From Bacteroidales bacterium (GTDB taxonomy: Bacteria > Bacteroidota > Bacteroidia > Bacteroidales > WCHB1-69): a stretch of DNA of 64,000 nucleotides. Each line of letters starts with the position of its first letter. Positions within the stretch are counted from its first letter, which is position 1. The notes beneath the pieces were generated by a model, which worked only from the letters and a program-made list of their open reading frames with translations, ran no database searches and was not told the origin of the DNA. The stretch lies in the NCBI GenBank assembly GCA_031253655.1, contig JAIRVY010000148.1:2121-66120 (forward strand), in the 5' to 3' direction. Positions 15,859-60,782 of the stretch are shown one piece after another. The translations under genes were made by a program, and so were the position numbers.

Positions 15859-17199
15859 TTAAAACTTAAACTGCATCCTGCATGTGAAAACACCTTCTTC
15901 TACATGTCTTTGATAATTGGCAACATGAATTTTTCCGGAAGATGGTTTTTCAGGAACGGGAATAGCATTTTTTGTAGAATTGAAAGGCAACTCGTAAAAA
16001 CAGAGTAAATGTAAGTAAGATGTAAATTTCACAAGAAATCCTGCGCCAAAGTAGTGATAAGGTAAATCTACCATGTTTGTGATGTTACTACCATTTAGTT
16101 GTGTATTTGGATTCAAAAAAGCATATTTTAATACGAAAGTAAGAGGCGTTTTGTATATATCCTGTACAAAATAAGTGTGTAAGCCCCAAAATTTACGAAG
16201 ATAATTAAATGGTGTATCTCCAAATTGCATAAATCCGGATTTAGGCGAACTAAAGTCATTTTCTGTAGAGGGTTGTGTTCCAAACAATACCTCACTGCGC
16301 AAGTTTGTAATTCCCCATGAAGTTTGAACTGAGAAGTTCGCGTCTAAACCATAGTATTGTCGAATATTTTTTTGAAAATTGGGAACATTTTCTCCAACCC
16401 ATTTTTTTTCCTGTGAGGCAACTCGTTTAACTTCATAAATCACAGAATCAGTGTTTCTTACTGTTCCATAATACATAGAAGCACCTATACCAAAAGTATA
16501 GTTTTTCCATTTTTTATTGTATTTCAACTGCCCAATAAAGTCCATTTTTCCGTTGTCGGGTAATGTAATTCCGTTTCCGCAGAAGGTGCCGGCTTCCAAT
16601 TTAAGTCCGTCCGGTTTTGAGCCTTTTGGCGAGGCAAGCGTTATCATAGCACCTAGATCTCTTTCATCAGGGAACAGTTTTTGGAATAAAACAGTTCTCT
16701 CGGGACTTTCCCTGCGGGAGGAGGAGTAGGAAATTTCGTCTCCAAAAGGCCGGTTAAAGATGCCTACAGTTAATGATGCCACCTTAAATCTTGACTCAGC
16801 TACTTTGAAATAGAGGTCTTTAATTATGATTCCTTTTTCGGTTAGGTCTAACTGAAAAGTTGCATTATACCAGTTTTCTTCATAAGAAATCTTGATGCGT
16901 CCTCGTCTAATACCAAAACGAAAAAAATCTCCTGATTTCCCATCTCTATCTTTATGATACGACGTTGATTTTCCTACTTTTGTTGTTGTAAACTCCTGCC
17001 CTACTTCAAATTGTCCTTGAATGTAGCCGGAAATCTTTAACTTTTGAAGTTTCTTAATTTGGATAAGGTTCTTATCTACGTCTTCTTTTATTTGGGATAA
17101 TTCTACCCTTAAAGAAATTGTGTCGGTTTGGGCAGAAAGAGGTTGAAAGCAGAAGAGCAGAAAAGCAGAAAGGCAAAAAGGCAAAAACTTAAAGTTCAT
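15859..17199 (-). CDS. Outer-membrane beta-barrel porin (porin O/P-like)
   Basis: Signal peptide, N-terminal coiled-coil segment, alternating beta-strand pattern, C-terminal ...RMQFKF. Confidence 0.5.
   Translation of the reverse strand: MNFKFLPFCLSAFLLFCFQPLSAQTDTISLRVELSQIKEDVDKNLIQIKKLQKLKISGYIQGQFEVGQEFTTTKVGKSTSYHKDRDGKSGDFFRFGIRRGRIKISYEENWYNATFQLDLTEKGIIIKDLYFKVAESRFKVASLTVGIFNRPFGDEISYSSSRRESPERTVLFQKLFPDERDLGAMITLASPKGSKPDGLKLEAGTFCGNGITLPDNGKMDFIGQLKYNKKWKNYTFGIGASMYYGTVRNTDSVIYEVKRVASQEKKWVGENVPNFQKNIRQYYGLDANFSVQTSWGITNLRSEVLFGTQPSTENDFSSPKSGFMQFGDTPFNYLRKFWGLHTYFVQDIYKTPLTFVLKYAFLNPNTQLNGSNITNMVDLPYHYFGAGFLVKFTSYLHLLCFYELPFNSTKNAIPVPEKPSSGKIHVANYQRHVEEGVFTCRMQFKF
17132..17188. 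repeat. Imperfect octamer tandem array GCAGAAAN, encoding the porin signal peptide on the - strand
   Basis: Five consecutive 8-mers at 17149-17188 (gcagaaga gcagaaaa gcagaaag gcaaaaag gcaaaaac), plus gcagaaag at 17132-17139. Confidence 0.8.
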
Positions 17200-21858: not shown

Positions 21859-23223
21859 GTGTTTCAAGAACTTAACAATATAGGGGAATTGTACAAACTG
21901 TTTGTGCAATTCCCTTTTGTTTCTACAGATACGAGAAATATAATTCCCAATTCTTTGTTTTTTTGTTTAAAAGGTGAAAAATTTGATGGGAATCAGTTTG
22001 TTGTCGAAGCACTTGAAAAGGGGGCGAGGTACGTAGTAACAGAAAGGAGATTTGAGATGGAAGATTTGCGATTTGAAATGAAAGATTTGAGAAAATTAGA
22101 ACCATCTGATATCGCAAAATCTCATATCGCTTATCGCATTATAGTGGTGGATGATGTGTTGGAGACGCTTCAGCAGTTAGCGGCGTATCATCGCAGGCAG
22201 TTGAAAACTCCAGTGATTGGAATTACTGGAAGCAACGGAAAAACAACTACAAAAGAACTGATAGCCGCAGTTTTATCCAAAAAGTATAAAACTACTTTTA
22301 CACAAGGCAATCTTAACAACCATATTGGCGTACCGCTTACCCTATTATCTACAAAAAAGGATGACGAAATTGCCGTAATAGAGCTGGGAGCAAACCACAC
22401 CGGAGAAATTGAAGAACTCTGCAAAATTGCCCAACCCGATTATGGAATTATTACCAACATTGGAAAAGCGCATTTGGAAGGTTTTGGTACTATTGAAAAT
22501 ATTATTGAAACAAAAACAGCCCTCTACCGCGCAGCCCCTATTCTGTTTGTAAATGCCGAAGATGAACTGCTGACTCATTTTATTAGCCGCCGGTTTCAAC
22601 CGGCGGAACATATAAGACGGGATGGTTTATTTTATTACGGAAAAAATACCGAATATAATGCTGAAATTGTGGAGATGAATCCCTGTTTGGTTATCAATTT
22701 GTTTGGAAATAAAATTCAAACCCAACTACCCGGCAACTACAACCTCCCCAACATTTTGGGAGCGACAGCTATTGGAGATTATTTTGGCATTTCAACACAA
22801 GATATTTGCGATGCTATCGCAGAATATAAACCCCAAAATCAGCGTTCACAGATTATTAAAACCACAAACAATACGATAATTGCCGATTACTACAATGCCA
22901 ACCCCACCAGTATGCAGGCAGCGTTGAACAATTTTATACAAATTGAAACACCCAAAAGATTGGCAATTCTCGGCGATATGCTGGAATTGGGCGAAAACAG
23001 TAAAATAGAGCATAAAAATGTGGTCAATTTTTGTAAAAATAATAGCATCGAAACCCTATTTATCGGTAGTGTATTTCATTCTCTAAAAGAGGAACATTTT
23101 CATTTCTTTATGAACGTTGAGGAATGTAATTATTACTTAAAAAGTCACAGTATTAAAGACAGTTTTATTTTGATTAAAGGCTCTCGCGGAATTCATTTGG
23201 AGGAAATAATATTATCTCTATAG
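21859..23223 (+). CDS. murF: UDP-N-acetylmuramoyl-tripeptide--D-alanyl-D-alanine ligase
   Basis: STDTRNI, GITGSNGKTTTKE P-loop, Mur ligase middle and C domains. Apparent GTG start. Contains a repeat-derived insertion at 22049-22140. Confidence 0.9.
   Translation: MFQELNNIGELYKLFVQFPFVSTDTRNIIPNSLFFCLKGEKFDGNQFVVEALEKGARYVVTERRFEMEDLRFEMKDLRKLEPSDIAKSHIAYRIIVVDDVLETLQQLAAYHRRQLKTPVIGITGSNGKTTTKELIAAVLSKKYKTTFTQGNLNNHIGVPLTLLSTKKDDEIAVIELGANHTGEIEELCKIAQPDYGIITNIGKAHLEGFGTIENIIETKTALYRAAPILFVNAEDELLTHFISRRFQPAEHIRRDGLFYYGKNTEYNAEIVEMNPCLVINLFGNKIQTQLPGNYNLPNILGATAIGDYFGISTQDICDAIAEYKPQNQRSQIIKTTNNTIIADYYNANPTSMQAALNNFIQIETPKRLAILGDMLELGENSKIEHKNVVNFCKNNSIETLFIGSVFHSLKEEHFHFFMNVEECNYYLKSHSIKDSFILIKGSRGIHLEEIILSL
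22049..22097. repeat. Imperfect heptamer tandem array (GATTTGA family) inside murF
   Basis: gatttga gatggaa gatttgc gatttga aatgaaa gatttga gaaaatt. Translated as RFEMEDLRFEMKDLRK (7-aa period). Confidence 0.8.
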
Positions 23224-36859: not shown

Positions 36860-39160
36860 ATGAGAAAAAAACTCCCTTCTCCTTTATACTTTCTCCTTTT
36901 TGCTTTCTTCTTTCTCCCCTTTTCCTCTTTCTCGCAAACCTACAATGAAGACGACAAAGAGGGCTTGCGTATCTTTCTGCGACAACCCTCCGTAATTGCG
37001 GGCGATATTAATGCACAAAGATTAGGACTGCAAATAAGCGATACAATAAATTGGATGATGGATGAATTGTGGGTAGCTAAAGTTACTGCACTTACTTGGA
37101 ACAGTGATATACCTAAACGATTGATAGAAATATACGGTAATAATATGGGATGGGATTACAAAGGGCTTGCAGGCTACTTAGATTGTAGTTTGTGGACTTA
37201 TTTGACAAGGATGCGTTGCACTGCGAATAATTTGACAACCCTGATAGCTAACAACAACACCGCATTAACACATTTGTACTTCCGATTTAACAAGCTTACA
37301 TGCATTAATGTAAGCAATTGCCCTGCCTTGGAAGTATTGTGGTGTAGTTCCAATCAATTAACAACACTCAATATTTATAACTGCCCGGCTCTAAAGTCTC
37401 TATGGTTTGAAAAAAATTTATTAACAACACTTAATGTTAACAATTGCACAGAATTGAATTGGGTAGATTGTAAAAATAATCAATTTATCATTCTTGATGT
37501 TGGCAATATTCCGGCTTTATCGCATTTAGAATGTAGTAGTAATTTTTTATCTTCCATAAACCTTAATGCAAGTTCTGCCTTATCCTACTTGGAAATCAAC
37601 AATAACCTTTTAACAACCATTGATATTAGCAATAATAGTTTATTATCAGAGTTACATATTAATAACAATCAAATTACGCATCTTGCCCCACATTCCGAAT
37701 CTTTAGCACATTTGGAATGTAGAAACAACAATCTTGTTTCTCTTGATGTAAATAACAGCCCAAACTTACTGCATTTAGATTGCAGAAACAACAACCTAAA
37801 CTCTATTGAATTAAGTAATAATAGTAAGTTACAGCAACTCTATTGCGAAAACAACGAACTAACCTCCCTTGATATAAGTAATAGTAAAAACCTGCAAGAA
37901 CTGTATTGTGATAATAACGAATTAACCGCGCTTAATGTAAGCAATGCTACAAAATTAGAAGAGTTACTATGTAAAAACAACCAACTCACCACGCTCGATG
38001 TAACCGATTGTCATGCCTTAACCCATTTAGATTGCAGAAACAACAGTTTAGCTTCTATTTCCAACATTCATAATAAAAACAACTTAAAAAAACTGATTTG
38101 CGACAACAATCAATTAACTACCCTTGATGTGAGCAACTGCACTAAATTGGAAGAGTTGTCGTGCGTAAACAACCAATTAACCTCTCTTGATGTAGCAAAA
38201 TGTAAATCTATTGTTCATATCGATTGTAGAGATAATCGGTTAAACTCCTTGGATATCAGTAGCGTTGGAGGAACTTATCTGTTGCACGCCTTGTGGTGTA
38301 GTTATAATCAAATGTTTTTTTCGGGCATTCCTCCCACCATCCCTTATCCGTGGGAGTATGTGTATTGGCCCCAAAATACCATAGAGGGCGGCAAAATTGA
38401 TTATGATACCGGCATTGATCTCAGTAAAGAATACTTGGTGGAAGGCAATTATACCCACTTCTCGTGGTTTGATATTACCAACGAGGAAGAACAGCCGATA
38501 GAACTACCGAATGACTACGGCTTTTTCTCACTTACAGAAGAACATATTGGAAAACGCCTGCGCTGCAAAATGCACAACGCCACTTTTCCATGGCTAACCG
38601 GCAATAATATTTTGGTGTATGAGGTAACAATAAAACAGTTTTGTGAAGCGGTGAACAATCTTGAGGCGGAGAAACACCCTTATAATTCTATTCTACTTAC
38701 ATGGAGCAAACCCGAAAGCAATTTTACGGTAGCCGGATACAGCGTTTATAGAAATGAACAATTATTAAATAATGAATTATCGTCTATCTGTTCTTCCTTA
38801 GATGAAAATTTACCTGATGGGAATTATGATTACTATGTAGAAACACATTACACAAACGGTTGTATTTCAGAAAAATCGAATATTGTTACCGTAACAGTTG
38901 GGGTTGGAATAGAATCAATTAAGAATTACGAATTACGAATTACGGTGTACCCGAATCCAACTACCGGTCAATTGAAAATTGACAATGGACAATTAACAAT
39001 TGAAAAAGTGGAAATTTACGATATTTACGGTAGAAAAGTTCTTGAACCACCTCTTACGGTCTTACGGTCTTACGATCTTACGGTCTTACACCACGGTATC
39101 TACTTTATAAAAATAACAACAGAAAAAGGAACAATTACCAAAAAAATGATTAAACAATGA
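36860..39160 (+). CDS. Leucine-rich-repeat surface protein with Fn3-like domain and T9SS C-terminal domain
   Basis: About 16 LRR units (NN.LT.LD..N...L..L.C); C-terminal VYPNPTTGQL...YDIYGRKV...GIYFIKI...KKMIKQ. Confidence 0.8.
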   Translation: MRKKLPSPLYFLLFAFFFLPFSSFSQTYNEDDKEGLRIFLRQPSVIAGDINAQRLGLQISDTINWMMDELWVAKVTALTWNSDIPKRLIEIYGNNMGWDYKGLAGYLDCSLWTYLTRMRCTANNLTTLIANNNTALTHLYFRFNKLTCINVSNCPALEVLWCSSNQLTTLNIYNCPALKSLWFEKNLLTTLNVNNCTELNWVDCKNNQFIILDVGNIPALSHLECSSNFLSSINLNASSALSYLEINNNLLTTIDISNNSLLSELHINNNQITHLAPHSESLAHLECRNNNLVSLDVNNSPNLLHLDCRNNNLNSIELSNNSKLQQLYCENNELTSLDISNSKNLQELYCDNNELTALNVSNATKLEELLCKNNQLTTLDVTDCHALTHLDCRNNSLASISNIHNKNNLKKLICDNNQLTTLDVSNCTKLEELSCVNNQLTSLDVAKCKSIVHIDCRDNRLNSLDISSVGGTYLLHALWCSYNQMFFSGIPPTIPYPWEYVYWPQNTIEGGKIDYDTGIDLSKEYLVEGNYTHFSWFDITNEEEQPIELPNDYGFFSLTEEHIGKRLRCKMHNATFPWLTGNNILVYEVTIKQFCEAVNNLEAEKHPYNSILLTWSKPESNFTVAGYSVYRNEQLLNNELSSICSSLDENLPDGNYDYYVETHYTNGCISEKSNIVTVTVGVGIESIKNYELRITVYPNPTTGQLKIDNGQLTIEKVEIYDIYGRKVLEPPLTVLRSYDLTVLHHGIYFIKITTEKGTITKKMIKQ
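36877..36932. repeat. Pyrimidine-rich heptamer-periodic tract (TTCTCCT family) encoding the LRR protein signal peptide
   Basis: ttctcct ttatact ttctcct ttttgct ttcttct ttctccc cttttcc tctttct, read in a 7-nt phase. Confidence 0.7.
38917..38944. repeat. Heptamer tandem array AATTACG x4 (first copy AATTAAG) just upstream of the T9SS tail
   Basis: aattaag aattacg aattacg aattacg, encoding IKNYELRIT directly before VYPNPT. Confidence 0.85.
39052..39091. repeat. Octamer tandem array TCTTACGG x5 inside the T9SS tail
   Basis: tcttacgg tcttacgg tcttacga tcttacgg tcttacac, encoding LTVLRSYDLTVLH. Confidence 0.85.
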
Positions 39161-48018: not shown

Positions 48019-48116
48019 AGTTACAAATTTAATCAATTGATTTATACAAATTTGTGAGTATTTATATAAATTATATGATTTATTGGAATGTTTTATATGA
48101 GTTTTACTCATTTATA

Positions 48117-48124
48117 TATTTTTG
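48117..48124 (+). promoter_or_regulatory. Candidate Bacteroidota -7 promoter box (TAnnTTTG)
   Basis: TATTTTTG, 52 nt upstream of ATG 48177. No clear -33 TTTG seen. Confidence 0.3.
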
Positions 48125-48176
48125 CAGTAAGAAATTTGTATCAATTACAGTTATTCATTTATCAATTCAAATCATT

Positions 48177-48641
48177 ATGAAACAAACTCTTACCCTTTTA
48201 TTATGGCTTTGCCTACCGTTTCTTAGCTTAGCCCAAAATCCACTAACTCGCGTGTACGAGTACGATGCAGCAGGCAATCGTGTTGTGCGAAAATTAATTA
48301 CATTAAAGGTACCCTCTACGCCGGCGGAAGATTCGGTGGAAGTTACAAGTGACGAGTTACTAGTTACGAGTTACATTTATTTTGTTGAAAAACTTGCCCA
48401 ACTTGAAATGAAAATCAACCCCAACCCATCTACTGAAAAGATTACGCTTTCTATTATCAATATGAATAAATTGCAAAGCGGACTACTGCAATTGTACTCT
48501 ATGAATGGACAGTTGCTTCAAACCCAACCCATCCATTCTGCTACAAGTGAAATTTCATTGGTAGGCTTTGTCACAGGCTCATATATCTTAAAAGTACAAA
48601 TAAATGATACCATCGAAAATTGGAAAATTATTAAACAATAA
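48177..48641 (+). CDS. Small secreted protein: YD-repeat fragment plus T9SS C-terminal domain
   Basis: Signal peptide (LSLAQ), YEYDAAGNRVVRK (YD/RHS repeat), heptamer-encoded linker, then KINPNPSTEKITLSI...YSMNGQLL...GSYILKVQ...KIIKQ. Confidence 0.6.
   Translation: MKQTLTLLLWLCLPFLSLAQNPLTRVYEYDAAGNRVVRKLITLKVPSTPAEDSVEVTSDELLVTSYIYFVEKLAQLEMKINPNPSTEKITLSIINMNKLQSGLLQLYSMNGQLLQTQPIHSATSEISLVGFVTGSYILKVQINDTIENWKIIKQ
48341..48375. repeat. Heptamer tandem array AGTTACN x5
   Basis: agttaca agtgacg agttact agttacg agttaca, encoding VTSDELLVTSY between the YD fragment and the T9SS tail. Confidence 0.85.
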
Positions 48642-50749: not shown

Positions 50750-51673
50750 TTACAAGGCAAAATCATCTAACCGTTTCTTTAGTCCCTCATATTTAAGTTT
50801 ATAGATGGTAGTTTCTTTAAAATAGTGTTCAAAAAAATCGGGGGTTAAGTTTGCTAAAACTTCTTCCTGCTTCCCAACAAACGAAGGGCGTAACAAAATT
50901 GCCTTCTCATTAACGGGGGCATCTGCGTTGTTTGGGCAAACATTTTGACATTCATCGCAGCCAATTAGCCAGCCATATTTAGCTATTTTAGTAAAGTTAG
51001 TTTCATTTTTATTTAAGTTAATATTAGAAATACAAAGATTACTATCCACTTGATATGGGGCAACAATGGCCTTTGTAGGACAAACAGCGATACACTGTCT
51101 GCAACTACCGCAGCTACCGAGATTAGGATTATCATAAATATCAACTTCTGCATTTATTAACAGACACCCCAAATAGACAAAAGAGCCGAATTTTGTCTGA
51201 ATTATACCGTTTTTCCCATAATAGCCTATTCCTGCCTGCACCGCCCACGCTTTTTCCGAAATAACCGAGGAATCTACTGTAATCCTATAATTAACCAATC
51301 CATATTTTTCTTGCAAACTACACGCCAAATCTTCCAACTTTTCTTTCATAAAAATGTGATAGTCTTTAATTTGTGCATATTGCGAAATTTGAGATTTGAA
51401 ATTTGAGATTTGAGATTTGAGTTGTAGAAATTGGGTGTTGTAATTATAACCACAAACAATTACCGATTTACAGTGTGCCAATAACAATTCAGGGTGAAAC
51501 CTTTTATCAATATCTCGTTCCAAAAATTCTTTATTGGCGTGCAAATTTTGAGCTATTGCTTTTTCAAAACGCTCTTTTTCAACAGGTAAAGGTTTTGCTT
51601 TGGTAATGCCACATAAGGCGAAACCTTGTTTTCGAGCTTCTTCTTTAATAAAATCTGAATTAATCCGTATCAT
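50750..51673 (-). CDS. queG: Epoxyqueuosine reductase
   Basis: CGSCRQCIAVCP and CDECQNVCP ferredoxin motifs; cobalamin-domain-like N-terminal half. Carries a heptamer-array insertion. Confidence 0.85.
   Translation of the reverse strand: MIRINSDFIKEEARKQGFALCGITKAKPLPVEKERFEKAIAQNLHANKEFLERDIDKRFHPELLLAHCKSVIVCGYNYNTQFLQLKSQISNFKSQISQYAQIKDYHIFMKEKLEDLACSLQEKYGLVNYRITVDSSVISEKAWAVQAGIGYYGKNGIIQTKFGSFVYLGCLLINAEVDIYDNPNLGSCGSCRQCIAVCPTKAIVAPYQVDSNLCISNINLNKNETNFTKIAKYGWLIGCDECQNVCPNNADAPVNEKAILLRPSFVGKQEEVLANLTPDFFEHYFKETTIYKLKYEGLKKRLDDFAL
51386..51420. repeat. Heptamer tandem array (A/G)ATTTGA x5 inside queG
   Basis: aatttga gatttga aatttga gatttga gatttga on the + strand, encoding KSQISNFKSQIS on the - strand. 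Confidence 0.85.
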
Positions 51674-59623: not shown

Positions 59624-60004
59624 TCATTTCCGTTGGCACGCTTTCGGCACTACACAAGTACCGGAAGCGCGGCATACCACCACAGGTGCTGCTAATACAT
59701 CGGCGGCAGAAGCGCTGATATCGGGGCGGGGCACAATTACTTTTTTAGCTTCAAACACCATTTTCCTAGAGCTGTTTCCCACGTGGGTAATCACCCCGGA
59801 GGCTTCAATATAATCGCCGGCATAAACAGGTGCTAAAAATTCCACGTTATCATAAGCGCAGAAAAGACCCTCGTCTCCGTCTTGCATTATTAGCAATTCG
59901 GTGGCAACATCGCCAAAAAGTTGCAACATTTTCGCGCCATCTACTAAATTTCCGCCATAATGGGCATCCGCGGAACTCATTCTCAATCGAATTAAAGATT
60001 TCAT
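59624..60004 (-). CDS. Hot-dog-fold protein resembling 3-aminobutyryl-CoA ammonia-lyase (Kal)
   Basis: [57 protein letters not shown] matches my recollection of Kal from the lysine fermentation pathway. Confidence 0.5.
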
Positions 60005-60050: not shown

Positions 60051-60104
60051 GGTTTGAAAAGTTTGAACAGTTTGAATAGTTTGAGGAGTTTGAATTGTTT
60101 GTAT
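60051..60104. repeat. Nonamer tandem array (AGTTTGAAN x6, imperfect) in the spacer between the CoA-transferase and Kal-like genes
   Basis: ggtttgaaa agtttgaac agtttgaat agtttgagg agtttgaat tgtttgtat. Confidence 0.85.
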
Positions 60105-60125: not shown

Positions 60126-60782
60126 TTATTCACTACTCACTACCAAAAAATTTACCACAATTCCCGGGGTGTGCACATTTTCCATAAGGATTTCTCCGAC
60201 GGGGACTAATTCTTCTAATTCGGCAATAACAGTATCGCAAGCCATTGCCATAAGTGGGTTGAAATTTTGGGTAGTGCCTTTGTAATGGAGGTTTCCAGCG
60301 GTGTCGCCGATAGTGGCACCCAGTAGTGCAACATCACCACGAATCGCTTTCTCCAACAGATACTCTTTACCATCTAAGGTTACGATTTGTTTTCCTTCGG
60401 CAACAACAGTACCCAGACCTGTGGGGGTAAGAAAACCTCCTAAACCTGCGCCGCCGCAGTGAACTTGCTCTGCCAATGTACCTTGGGGAACAAAAACTAC
60501 TTCTATTTCTTTATTATTAAACTGCGCAATGGTCATAGGATTAGTTCCGATATGGGACACAAACACTTTTTTTACTTTTTTAGCGGCTATGAGTAGCCCG
60601 ATACCTTTATCGGGGAAAGCAGTATCGTTGCAAACAATCGTTAAGTCGCAGATATCGCTATTTGCTAGCGCTTTTAAGATTTTGTGCGGAGAGCCGGCAG
60701 CCATAAAACCACCAATCATCACAGTCATTCCGCTTTTTATTTTTTCTACGGCTTGCGTTGCCGTAAGGAGAGGTTTTTGCAT
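60126..60782 (-). CDS. 3-oxoacid/acetate CoA-transferase, subunit A
   Basis: SGMTVMIGGF and VPQGTLAEQVHCGGAGLGGFLTPTG are subunit A signatures. No subunit B gene is adjacent. Confidence 0.8.
   Translation of the reverse strand: MQKPLLTATQAVEKIKSGMTVMIGGFMAAGSPHKILKALANSDICDLTIVCNDTAFPDKGIGLLIAAKKVKKVFVSHIGTNPMTIAQFNNKEIEVVFVPQGTLAEQVHCGGAGLGGFLTPTGLGTVVAEGKQIVTLDGKEYLLEKAIRGDVALLGATIGDTAGNLHYKGTTQNFNPLMAMACDTVIAELEELVPVGEILMENVHTPGIVVNFLVVSSE

What the first reader, a model, noticed from the sequence alone, without database searches (positions are those of the whole stretch)
22049..22140. In-frame insertion built from heptamer repeats inside the essential gene murF
Between the conserved ...GARYVVTE and RIIVVDDVLETLQQLAAYHR segments, MurF carries about 30 extra residues. 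They are encoded by seven phased 7-mers of the GATTTGA family (22049-22097, giving RFEMEDLRFEMKDLRK). A second short periodic stretch follows (atatcgc...catatcgc ttatcgc, 22108-22137). From memory, MurF proteins of other bacteria have only a short loop here. The same heptamer recurs in queG on the opposite coding strand (51386-51420), which implies a dispersed short-repeat family able to expand inside coding sequence while preserving the frame.
Basis: partly seen in the sequence, partly recalled or inferred. Interest (0 to 1): 0.55.

Follow-up and report, generated by a model that had tools for sequence, protein, structure and literature searches.

The report
Heptamer-repeat hairpin fossil inside murF
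The essential cell-wall gene murF carries a translated, partly decayed insert made of two inverted runs of a 7-base repeat, and related bacteria fill the same dispensable protein loops with such repeats, which in other genomes flank a small four-helix-bundle gene.

Summary
MurF (21859-23223) has a 32-residue segment (22045-22140) where short-loop orthologs have about 10 residues. It is not seven clean 7-mers. It is a 21-nt tandem duplication with 7-nt sub-periodicity, followed by a second arm that is its degenerate inverted complement. Clearer versions, (GMGATWT)n-spacer-(AWATCTC)n, occupy the same loop in five related metagenomic orthologs, with different copy numbers and, in three of them, a significant hairpin. 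Pure GATTTGA units would read TGA in frame, and that unit is always mutated. The same unit sits in a QueG loop (51387-51421), where orthologs differ by exactly 7, 14 and 21 residues, that is multiples of three units. In this Lentimicrobiaceae-like clade both loops are hypervariable and hold heptamer or octamer arrays and REP-like palindromes. In five genomes or genome pairs one repeat occurs at two separate sites. In a Prevotella MAG the MurF insert is a 41-nt copy of the arms flanking a PF05635 four-helix-bundle gene. All 12 PF05635 genes examined lie between heptamer arrays. The most likely reading is a neutral, translated passenger from a dispersed short-repeat family, resized by three-unit slippage and now decaying. 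It is a new variant of known kinds (STRR-type repeats, Rickettsia RPEs).

The parts
21859..23223 (+). murF coding sequence (UDP-MurNAc-tripeptide--D-Ala-D-Ala ligase), 454 aa, intact
   Evidence: ORF list. Pfam Mur_ligase, Mur_ligase_M and Mur_ligase_C. Matches to solved MurF structures with E = 1.5e-51. gldJ-like/murF synteny is kept in orthologs.
22045..22140 (+). In-frame insert, residues 63-94 (RRFEMEDLRFEMKDLRKLEPSDIAKSHIAYR), about 22 residues longer than the short ancestral-type loop
   Evidence: Alignment with 75 orthologs and with PDB MurF. AlphaFold pLDDT is below 50 for residues 68-87. The same insert is present in the 82% ortholog L123.
22049..22097 (+). Left arm: GAGATTT/GATTTGA-type heptamers organised as a 21-nt unit x2 (22049-22069 and 22070-22090) plus a decayed unit. 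The in-frame TGA of the pure unit is replaced (ATGGAA, AATGAAA).
   Evidence: TRF period 21, score 68. Direct repeat D2 at 86%. Autocorrelation and shuffles. Codon view.
22103..22140 (+). Right arm: degenerate AWATCKC heptamers (ATATCGC, AAAATCTC, ATATCGC, TTATCGC), the inverted complement of the left-arm family, read as SDIAKSHIAYR
   Evidence: TRF period ~7. Inverted pairs I1-I3 and I5. Homologous to the KSQISNL/KSHISN arms of L124, L125, L126, L128 and L044.
22582..22656 (+). Second variable site of MurF (residues 242-266). Relatives carry in-frame heptamer arrays here.
   Evidence: Indels against L123 at residues 242-247 and 263-266. pLDDT below 50 at 248-253. Arrays at this site in L001 (AATTCAA x4.9), L128 (GCAGAAA x3.3) and L275 (TGCGGTG x5.0).
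50750..51673 (-). queG (epoxyqueuosine reductase) coding sequence, 307 aa
   Evidence: Pfam QueG_DUF1730 and Fer4_16. Homologs.
51387..51421 (-). In-frame heptamer array, (CAAATCT)5 on the coding strand, read LKSQISNFKSQIS. It runs into the native K-I-S-Q-Y-A codons.
   Evidence: TRF 5.0 copies, 92% matches. Translation. Ortholog loops of 11, 18 and 32 aa.
38917..39089 (+). Three in-frame arrays at and inside the T9SS C-terminal sorting domain of ORF 36860..39160: AATTACG x4 (38917-38944, NYELRIT), CAATTGA x5 (38969-39003, QLKIDNGQLTIEK), TCTTACGG x4.8 (39052-39089, LTVLRSYDLTVL)
   Evidence: TRF. Sequence. Pfam Por_Secre_tail at residues 696-764. The octamer array is 36/38 identical to the MurF-loop array of L127.
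48341..48374 (+). In-frame AGTTACG x4.9 array (EVTSDELLVTSY) just upstream of the T9SS sorting domain of ORF 48054..48641
   Evidence: TRF. Sequence. Pfam Por_Secre_tail at residues 121-188.
17148..17187 (-). Octamer array (AGCAGAAA x5 on the + strand) inside what reads as a signal peptide, MNFKFLPFCLSAFLLFCF, of ORF 15859..17199. The signal-peptide call is my reading of the sequence, not a prediction tool.
   Evidence: Period census. Sequence.

Best explanation
The segment is the translated, partly decayed remnant of a short hairpin-type repeat element. It consists of two inverted heptanucleotide arrays, (GAGATWT)n then (AWATCTC)n.

The element became fixed in a dispensable surface loop of the N-terminal domain of MurF in an ancestor of this Lentimicrobiaceae-like subclade. 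Such arrays belong to genome-specific dispersed families. One unit turns up at several unlinked places in a genome, which points to copying from other arrays. The copying would be by template switching or gene conversion, helped by microhomology such as the native AAATC of the Pro-Lys-Ser codons.

Once in a gene, the arrays grow and shrink by slipped-strand mispairing. In an essential gene only net changes of three units (21 nt, 7 aa) survive. The TGA that GATTTGA gives in frame has to be removed by point substitution. This turns the heptamer array into a 21-nt higher-order repeat.

In this genome the array has stopped changing. It evolves like ordinary coding sequence and encodes a disordered loop that is probably functionless.

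Shown: the anatomy, the homology with cleaner arrays in orthologs, the removal of stops, the three-unit length steps, the clade-wide hypervariability of permissive loops, and the sharing of repeats between sites.

Inferred: the slippage and copying mechanisms, and neutrality.
For: Anatomy and chance.

Homologous inserts in orthologs. One search gives the codon-level DNA for L123, L124, L125, L126 and L044, and for L128. All show a left arm reading D/M-L/M-R-F/Y/C/S-E-I/M-C/E/K, with TGA always replaced by TGC, TGT, GAA or AAA, and a right arm reading KSQISNL. In L125 the 21-nt unit GAGATGTGAGATATGCGATAT occurs twice exactly. The L125 insert aligns to L044 (86.5% over 104 nt) and to L124 (89.9% over 69 nt).

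Hairpin potential: RNA folding z-scores of -4.99 (L125), -5.44 (L044) and -2.95 (L124).

Dispensable loop: pLDDT below 50. Orthologs with a 9-10-residue loop or almost none. PDB MurF enzymes have a short loop.

Three-unit steps: QueG loops of 11, 18 and 32 aa, with about 4.5, 5 and 11 units at the DNA level.

Hypervariability confined to the clade: QueG NY..DYH distance has sd 8.7 (range 15-57) in the clade, against sd 1.6 (range 19-23) in the outgroup. MurF lengths are 410-504 aa in the clade (P0001-P0065), against 418-438 in the 51-55% identity group.

One repeat at two separate sites:
- Window: GAGATTT/AAATCTC in murF and queG.
- L275 contig: TGCGGTG-type array in MurF site 2.
- L012: GAGTGAA in MurF and in both arms of a PF05635 cassette. 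This is a 41-nt copy that includes 13 non-repeat bases. GAGTGAAGAATTTGCT has 3 exact hits against 0.01 expected.
- L016: CAACTCT in the MurF C-terminal domain and just after the stop codon.
- Between genomes: the octamer array of the window CTD is 36/38 identical to the MurF loop of L127, with a shared variant unit.

Period bias: among stringent arrays in 1.5 Mb, period 7 gives 50, against 20, 11, 13, 14, 2 and 1 for periods 4, 5, 6, 8, 9 and 10.

Stability now.
Against: In the window itself the hairpin is not significant (z = -1.55), and no other copy of the insert exists in the 64 kb. The element nature therefore rests on orthologs.

The arrays in both genes start or end in phase with native AAATC(T/G/A) codons: P-K-S in MurF (L001, L275) and K-I-S in QueG. 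Independent local seeding could therefore give the same unit twice.

Arrays of any heptamer are common, as the scrambled controls show.

No PF05635 gene or intergenic GAGATTT array was found in the window or in the roughly 100 kb of close relatives' DNA examined.

Neutrality is inferred. The insert is slightly better conserved than the gene average between the two closest genomes.
Confidence: 0.62

Rival explanations
1. Purely local microsatellite. A chance duplication of native sequence (the AAATC of the Lys-Ser codons) seeded a heptamer array. The array expanded by polymerase slippage. An inverted arm arose by quasi-palindrome template switching. No dispersed family or transfer between loci is involved.
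For: The arrays are in phase with native codons. Short-loop MurF has CCA AAA TCG/TCA. QueG ends in the native AAA ATT TCA/TCG (K-I-S). L001 has a mini-palindrome, AATCG..CGATT, at this spot. Heptamer arrays of arbitrary units are common: controls give 21 and 10 hits against 34. Period 7 dominates generally, as reported by Mrazek 2007 (cited in PMC4679880).
Against: One repeat occurs at two separate sites in five genomes or genome pairs. This includes a 41-nt copy with 13 non-repeat bases in L012 and a 38-nt octamer array with a shared variant unit in unrelated proteins. The same loops also hold REP-like palindromes that cannot arise by slippage.
Confidence: 0.2
2. Functional insert. Either the charged peptide (FEMEDLRFEMKDLRK) gives MurF a new interaction surface, or the mRNA hairpin regulates translation or stability of murF.
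For: The insert is as conserved as the rest of the gene between the two closest genomes, or slightly more so: aa 91% against 82%, and no indel. Significant hairpins exist in three orthologs.
Against: Sequence, length and even repeat type at this loop differ freely among orthologs of 60-80% identity, and some have almost no loop. The region is predicted disordered. The hairpin is not significant in the window, L123 or L126. The conservation is not an outlier: 23% of 32-codon windows are at least as conserved.
Confidence: 0.08
3. Contingency locus. The non-triplet repeat lets murF or queG switch on and off by frameshifting slippage.
For: A unit length of 7 would shift the frame with each single-unit change. 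Copy number differs between species.
Against: murF is essential (general knowledge of peptidoglycan synthesis). The window array is degenerate (2 x 21 nt at 86-90%). No length variants occur within clusters at 90% identity or more. All observed differences preserve the frame.
Confidence: 0.02
4. Assembly or gene-calling artefact.
For: The source is a metagenome-assembled contig, and repeats can be mis-assembled.
Against: An identical protein is present in JGI and NCBI records. The same insert occurs in an independent ENA assembly of a related organism (L123). Analogous arrays occur in many independent assemblies.
Confidence: 0.01

Closest known systems
Heptanucleotide long simple sequence repeats: cyanobacterial STRR (Mazel 1990, from memory), Mrazek 2007 LSSR, TAACTGA repeats of Beggiatoaceae, Cyanobacteria and five Bacteroidetes (PMC4679880), GGGAATC repeats of Xanthomonas including inverted pairs (PMC4692102)
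   Same: Tandem 7-nt units. Period 7 is over-represented. Favoured units are lineage-specific. Occasional inverted pairs occur. Each strand has one cyclic 7-aa reading (LSVISYQ there, KSQISNL here), and stops restrict the other strand.
   Different: Those repeats are described as mainly intergenic. Here the arrays are translated inside conserved housekeeping enzymes, with the stop-bearing strand repaired into a 21-nt higher-order repeat, and they recur at the same loops across a clade.
Rickettsia palindromic elements (RPE; Ogata et al. 2000, from memory; reviewed among prokaryotic MITEs in PMC10969869, which I listed but did not read)
   Same: Short palindromic selfish repeats inserted in frame into conserved protein genes at surface-compatible positions, and kept as extra peptide segments.
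   Different: RPEs are 100-150 bp families with a conserved consensus, not tandem heptamers. Here the arms are microsatellite-like and change length in three-unit steps. The host is a free-living Bacteroidales lineage.
23S rRNA intervening sequences and PF05635 (23S_rRNA_IVP, TIGR02436 four-helix-bundle, Avd-like) cassettes
   Same: A stem built from inverted terminal repeats inserted into a loop of a functional gene product. All 12 PF05635 genes examined sit between heptamer arrays. In L012 the MurF insert is a copy of such an arm.
   Different: The window insert has no ORF between the arms and lies in a protein-coding gene, so it cannot be cut out of the RNA as an rRNA IVS is. No PF05635 gene with GAGATTT arms was found.
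REP/REPIN-RAYT systems
   Same: Dispersed hairpin repeats, with a master gene flanked by inverted copies. A RAYT-like Y1_Tnp gene flanked by inverted REP-like palindromes was seen in relative L271. REP-like palindromes occupy the same MurF and QueG loops in other relatives.
   Different: REPs are unique palindromes, not tandem arrays. No Y1 transposase is associated with the heptamer arrays.
STRR arrays inside the cyanobacterial RNase P RNA gene (Vioque 1997, from memory)
   Same: Heptamer arrays tolerated inside an essential gene product at a structurally permissive hairpin or loop.
   Different: That case is an RNA gene, not a translated protein loop.

Membership tests
Heptanucleotide tandem repeat (LSSR/STRR type) | At least 3 head-to-tail copies of a 7-nt unit at high identity | tested here: inconclusive
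   murF in the window: only 4 of 7 phased units match at 6/7 or better, and TRF sees period 21 x2.0. The feature is met in orthologs at the same site (L125 8.3 copies, L126 5.1, L124 4.7) and in the window queG (5.0 copies, 92%).
Heptanucleotide tandem repeat (LSSR/STRR type) | Copy-number change between related genomes | tested here: met
   QueG loops of 11, 18 and 32 aa. MurF arms differ between L124, L125, L126, L044 and the window. No variation within clusters at 90% identity or more.
In-frame palindromic selfish element (RPE-like) | Inverted-repeat structure able to form a hairpin | tested here: inconclusive
   Significant in L125, L044 and L124 (z = -5.0, -5.4, -3.0). Not significant in the window (z = -1.55), L123 or L126.
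In-frame palindromic selfish element (RPE-like) | In-frame insertion at a permissive surface position of a conserved protein | tested here: met
In-frame palindromic selfish element (RPE-like) | Many dispersed copies with a shared consensus in the same genome | tested here: inconclusive
   Only the unit is shared with queG in the 64 kb. Copies with non-repeat parts are shown only in L012. The whole genome was not available.
PF05635 (23S rRNA IVS-type) cassette | Four-helix-bundle ORF between the inverted arms | tested here: not met
   The spacer is about 10-30 nt. There is no PF05635 homolog in the window.
PF05635 (23S rRNA IVS-type) cassette | Arms built of inverted heptamer arrays | tested here: met
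   Window and ortholog arms. For comparison, 10 of 12 PF05635 genes have clearly inverted arrays.
Phase-variable contingency locus | Within-population frameshifting copy-number polymorphism in a non-essential, usually surface-related gene | tested here: not met
   The genes are essential or housekeeping. There are no variants in clusters at 90% identity or more, though these have few members. All differences are in frame.
REP/REPIN-RAYT | Association with a Y1 (RAYT) transposase and a unique palindromic consensus | tested here: not met
   No Y1_Tnp gene was found next to the heptamer arrays. A RAYT-like gene with REP flanks exists in L271 but with unrelated palindromes.

The most novel reading that the evidence does not exclude
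Heptanucleotide arrays, including the classic STRR of cyanobacteria, may not be plain slippage products. They may be the arms of a widespread family of IVS-like hairpin elements whose autonomous form carries a PF05635 (Avd-like four-helix-bundle) gene. That protein, perhaps with a polymerase or reverse transcriptase partner as Avd has in diversity-generating retroelements, would create, maintain or spread the arrays. Cargo-less arm pairs and single arms would then be copied into rRNA helices, operon spacers and, in frame, the permissive loops of proteins such as MurF and QueG.

The evidence does not exclude this. All 12 PF05635 genes examined are flanked by heptamer arrays. Eight of them were sampled only by protein similarity, from five phyla. 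In three 50-kb stretches the only period-7 arrays lie within 180 nt of that gene. In one genome the MurF insert is a 41-nt copy of the cassette arm.
Probability: 0.25. Interest if true: 0.85.

Novelty: new variant of a known kind. Interest (0 to 1): 0.6.

Why it matters
The finding shows that short non-triplet tandem repeats can colonise essential enzymes, and it shows what such colonisation leaves behind. The marks are frame-preserving three-unit steps, repaired stop codons and 21-nt higher-order repeats. It also shows that in one Bacteroidales lineage the permissive loops of housekeeping proteins turn over rapidly through repeat insertion. This affects annotation, alignment and phylogeny of these MAGs.

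The side result matters more. A strict physical association between four-helix-bundle (PF05635, Avd-like) genes and heptamer arrays across phyla gives a concrete, testable handle on two open questions. One is where bacterial heptamer repeats come from, which I believe has been unanswered since about 1990. The other is what this very common protein family of unknown function does.

Tried and rejected
- Genome-contig scan with MurF: one close relative only (L001), because the exact-peptide patterns were too specific.
- Extending the source contig with edge genes: returned short Logan contigs, so no more of this genome was gained.
- Protein search with (KSQISNL)x6: returned only 34-74 aa ORFs, which appear to be spurious calls over intergenic arrays. 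It gave no census of host proteins and no PF05635 link.
- Iterated HMM search for PF05635 in the 2.6 Mb of loci held at that point: 4 genes, none in the window or in close relatives' loci. The GAGATTT arrays of 34 viral-collection loci had none nearby.
- RNA-level ideas: no Rfam family and no tRNA in the window. The window hairpin is not significant.
- Global specialness of GATTTGA: rejected by the scrambled controls.
- Within-cluster polymorphism: none; the length differences are start-codon calls.
- The Elhai 2008 paper on small dispersed repeats could not be retrieved.
Full report
**What is there.** The ORF 21859..23223 (+) is an intact murF. It has the three Mur-ligase Pfam domains. It matches solved MurF structures with E = 1.5e-51. 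It keeps every column that is invariant among 26 orthologs. It follows a PorP/SprF gene and a GldJ-like FGE-sulfatase gene, as in its relatives. Between GARYVVTE and IIVVDDVLETLQQLAAYHR it encodes RRFEMEDLRFEMKDLRKLEPSDIAKSHIAYR (residues 63-94, 22045-22140). Short-loop orthologs have 9-10 residues here (ENKQLPKSDR). A. baumannii MurF aligns about 9. The excess is therefore about 22 residues.

**Repeat structure of the insert.** TRF reports 22049-22089 as period 21, 2.0 copies, 90% matches. Autocorrelation is 0.50, 0.60 and 0.71 at lags 7, 14 and 21. A 21-nt duplication of this quality occurs once in the window, against 0.01 expected in shuffles. The second stretch (22103-22140) has lag-7 autocorrelation of 0.57. 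It is 76-83% complementary to the first stretch.

**What the orthologs show.** The closest proteins come from metagenomes. The named ones are Lentimicrobiaceae or Bacteroidales MAGs, and the window protein itself is in NCBI as a Bacteroidales MAG. Across about 75 orthologs of 59-82% identity this loop is hypervariable.

At the DNA level, L123, L124, L125, L126 and L044 and L128 carry a homologous element. It has a left arm of GMGATWT units, a short spacer, and a right arm of AWATCTC units.
- L125 has about 8 plus 6 units. Its insert aligns to L044 (86.5% over 104 nt) and to L124 (89.9% over 69 nt).
- The right arm reads KSQISNL.
- The left arm is the strand on which the pure unit reads D-L-R-F-E-I-stop. 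In every case the in-frame TGA is replaced by TGC, TGT, GAA or AAA. The array therefore becomes a 21-nt higher-order repeat, which occurs twice exactly in L125.
- The arms fold into a significant hairpin in L125, L044 and L124 (z = -5.0, -5.4, -3.0). They do not in L126, L123 or the window.

The window insert is therefore a decayed member of this element. It is shared without any indel by the 82% ortholog L123. It is as conserved as the rest of the gene: 91% against 82% at the amino-acid level, and 92% against 85% at the nucleotide level. This is not an outlier.

**The loop is a hotspot, and so are others.**
- Other orthologs carry, at the same spot, an octamer array read NLTVLRSYDLTVL, or in-frame peptides that I take to be REP-like palindromes (EYPLQFLKGCPKGGVVN, CHSERSEES, HCGLDPQSP). 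The palindrome is confirmed at the DNA level only for L043, with GCTTCGATTTCGCTCAG..CTGAGCGAAGTCGAAGG.
- A second MurF site (window residues 242-266) holds heptamer arrays in L001, L128 and L275.
- A Prevotella MAG (L016) has (CAACTCT)10.4 in frame in the C-terminal domain, and the same array just after the stop codon.
- AlphaFold gives pLDDT below 50 for residues 1-5, 68-87, 126-128 and 248-253. The second and fourth of these coincide with the two variable sites.

**QueG.** QueG behaves the same way. The window array 51387-51421 reads LKSQISNFKSQIS in the loop between NYN and ISQYAQIKDYH. The NY..DYH distance has sd 8.7 (range 15-57) in the clade, against sd 1.6 (range 19-23) in the outgroup. 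The loops of L270, the window and L269 are 11, 18 and 32 aa.

**Other permissive regions in the window.** T9SS sorting domains, their linkers and signal peptides also carry in-frame arrays. Stringent arrays in the window occur only at periods 7, 8 and 9. Over 1.5 Mb of MurF loci, period 7 dominates: 50 arrays, against 20, 11, 13, 14, 2 and 1 for periods 4, 5, 6, 8, 9 and 10. This agrees with published work on bacterial simple repeats (PMC4679880 citing Mrazek 2007; PMC4692102).

**Local expansion or dispersed family?** For local seeding:
- The arrays are in phase with native AAATC-containing codons, P-K-S in MurF and K-I-S in QueG.
- Arrays of arbitrary heptamers are common. (GATTTGA)3 gives 34 hits in the viral collection, and two scrambled controls give 21 and 10.

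For dispersal, one repeat recurs at two separate sites:
- Window: GAGATTT/AAATCTC in murF and queG.
- L275 contig: TGCGGTG-type array in MurF site 2.
- L016: CAACTCT in murF and in the downstream spacer.
- Between genomes: the octamer array of a window T9SS domain is 36/38 identical to the MurF loop of L127, including a variant unit.
- Prevotella MAG L012: the MurF-loop insert is a 41-nt copy (38/41) of both arms of a cassette 5.5 kb away. The copy includes 13 non-repeat bases. The 16-mer spanning the junction has 3 exact hits, against 0.01 expected.

I conclude that arrays are copied between loci and then resized locally by slippage. Microhomology with native sequence may guide where they land.

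**The cassette link.** The L012 cassette holds a PF05635/TIGR02436 four-helix-bundle gene between pta and ackA. All four such genes in the loci already fetched lie between inverted heptamer arrays.

I then sampled eight more by protein similarity alone, from plasmids of Cyanobacteriota, Spirochaetota, Chloroflexota, Bacteroidota and Bacillota. All eight have period-7 arrays on both flanks. Six are clearly inverted, one is direct (Treponema), and one is weak. In three 50-kb stretches around them, the only period-7 arrays (3, 2 and 1) lie within 180 nt of the gene.

The cassettes sit inside apparent operons: hsdS-hsdR, RND adaptor-permease, and helicase-methylase. PF05635 is related to Avd of diversity-generating retroelements (PMC10053308). 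I found no paper linking it to heptamer repeats.

Most arrays have no such gene nearby. Cargo-less inverted pairs exist, including a perfect (GAGATTT)3/(TCAAATC)4 palindrome in L142. No PF05635 gene with GAGATTT arms was found, so for the window this link is an inference by analogy.

It combines features of heptamer SSRs (STRR type) and of in-frame palindromic elements such as Rickettsia RPEs, so I rate it a new variant of known kinds. The most interesting lead is outside the window: the strict association between Avd-like four-helix-bundle genes and heptamer arrays.

Noticed in passing
L012 4100-4616; L246 612-1036; L252 744-1240 and 1643-2123; L261-L268; L272-L274: Every PF05635/TIGR02436 four-helix-bundle (Avd-like, '23S rRNA IVS protein') gene examined (12 of 12, from at least 5 phyla) lies between heptamer tandem arrays, mostly inverted. 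In three 50-kb stretches these are the only period-7 arrays present. The cassettes sit inside apparent operons (pta-ackA, hsdS-hsdR, RND adaptor-permease, helicase-methylase). No paper describing this was found.
   Followed up: partly
window 60052-60101: Intergenic 9-mer array GTTTGAANA x5.6 (also scored as period 18 x2.8) between ORFs 59624..60004 and 60126..60782, both on the minus strand. Function unknown.
   Followed up: no
window 38917-39089 and 48341-48374: T9SS C-terminal sorting domains and the linkers just before them contain in-frame heptamer and octamer arrays (NYELRIT, QLKIDNGQLTIEK, LTVLRSYDLTVL, SDELLVTSY). Within the Pfam domain they do not lengthen it, as if they overwrite native segments rather than insert. 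The octamer array is 36/38 identical to the MurF-loop array of another species (L127).
   Followed up: partly
window 17148-17187 and 36872-36926; L124 2040-2143: N-terminal regions that read as signal peptides also carry 7-8-nt arrays (MNFKFLPFCLSAFLLFCF; KKLPSPLYFLLFAFFFLPF). This would be another permissive region. The signal-peptide call is my reading of the sequence.
   Followed up: no
P0006, P0008, P0013, P0019, P0036, P0057, P0029, P0043, P0066 (MurF); P0164, P0177, P0133, P0137 (QueG); L043 6180-6230: Relatives carry in-frame peptides that look like REP-type palindromes in the same loops (EYPLQFLKGCPKGGVV, CHSERSEES, HCGLDPQSP, PRYARNDR, YLEPLFLKGT). In L043 the DNA is a 16-nt inverted repeat forming a 13-bp stem.
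   Followed up: partly
L271 2300-3000 and 15287-16486: In a relative's QueG locus, a Y1_Tnp (RAYT-like) gene is flanked by inverted REP-like palindromes (CCCCCAATGAAGCGCAGCGATTGGGGG). Inverted 10-mer arrays (TTCTCTGTGA / CACAGAGAAC) form hairpins on both sides of ddl.
   Followed up: no
L016 11264-11336 and 11552-11662: A Prevotella MAG has (CAACTCT)10.4 in frame in the MurF C-terminal domain (SQPSTLN x3.5), and the same unit in two long arrays immediately after the stop codon.
   Followed up: partly
L264 25-312 (= L272 25067-25354): Treponema saccharophilum plasmid: a 41-copy heptamer array (AGGAAAG) next to the four-helix-bundle gene. Here the flanking CGGAGAG arrays are in direct, not inverted, orientation.
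   Followed up: no
L129-L162: (GATTTGA)n arrays occur in contigs of 24-70% G+C in the viral collection. Several high-G+C contigs carry many heptamer arrays of different units (L134, L145, L152, L162).
   Followed up: no
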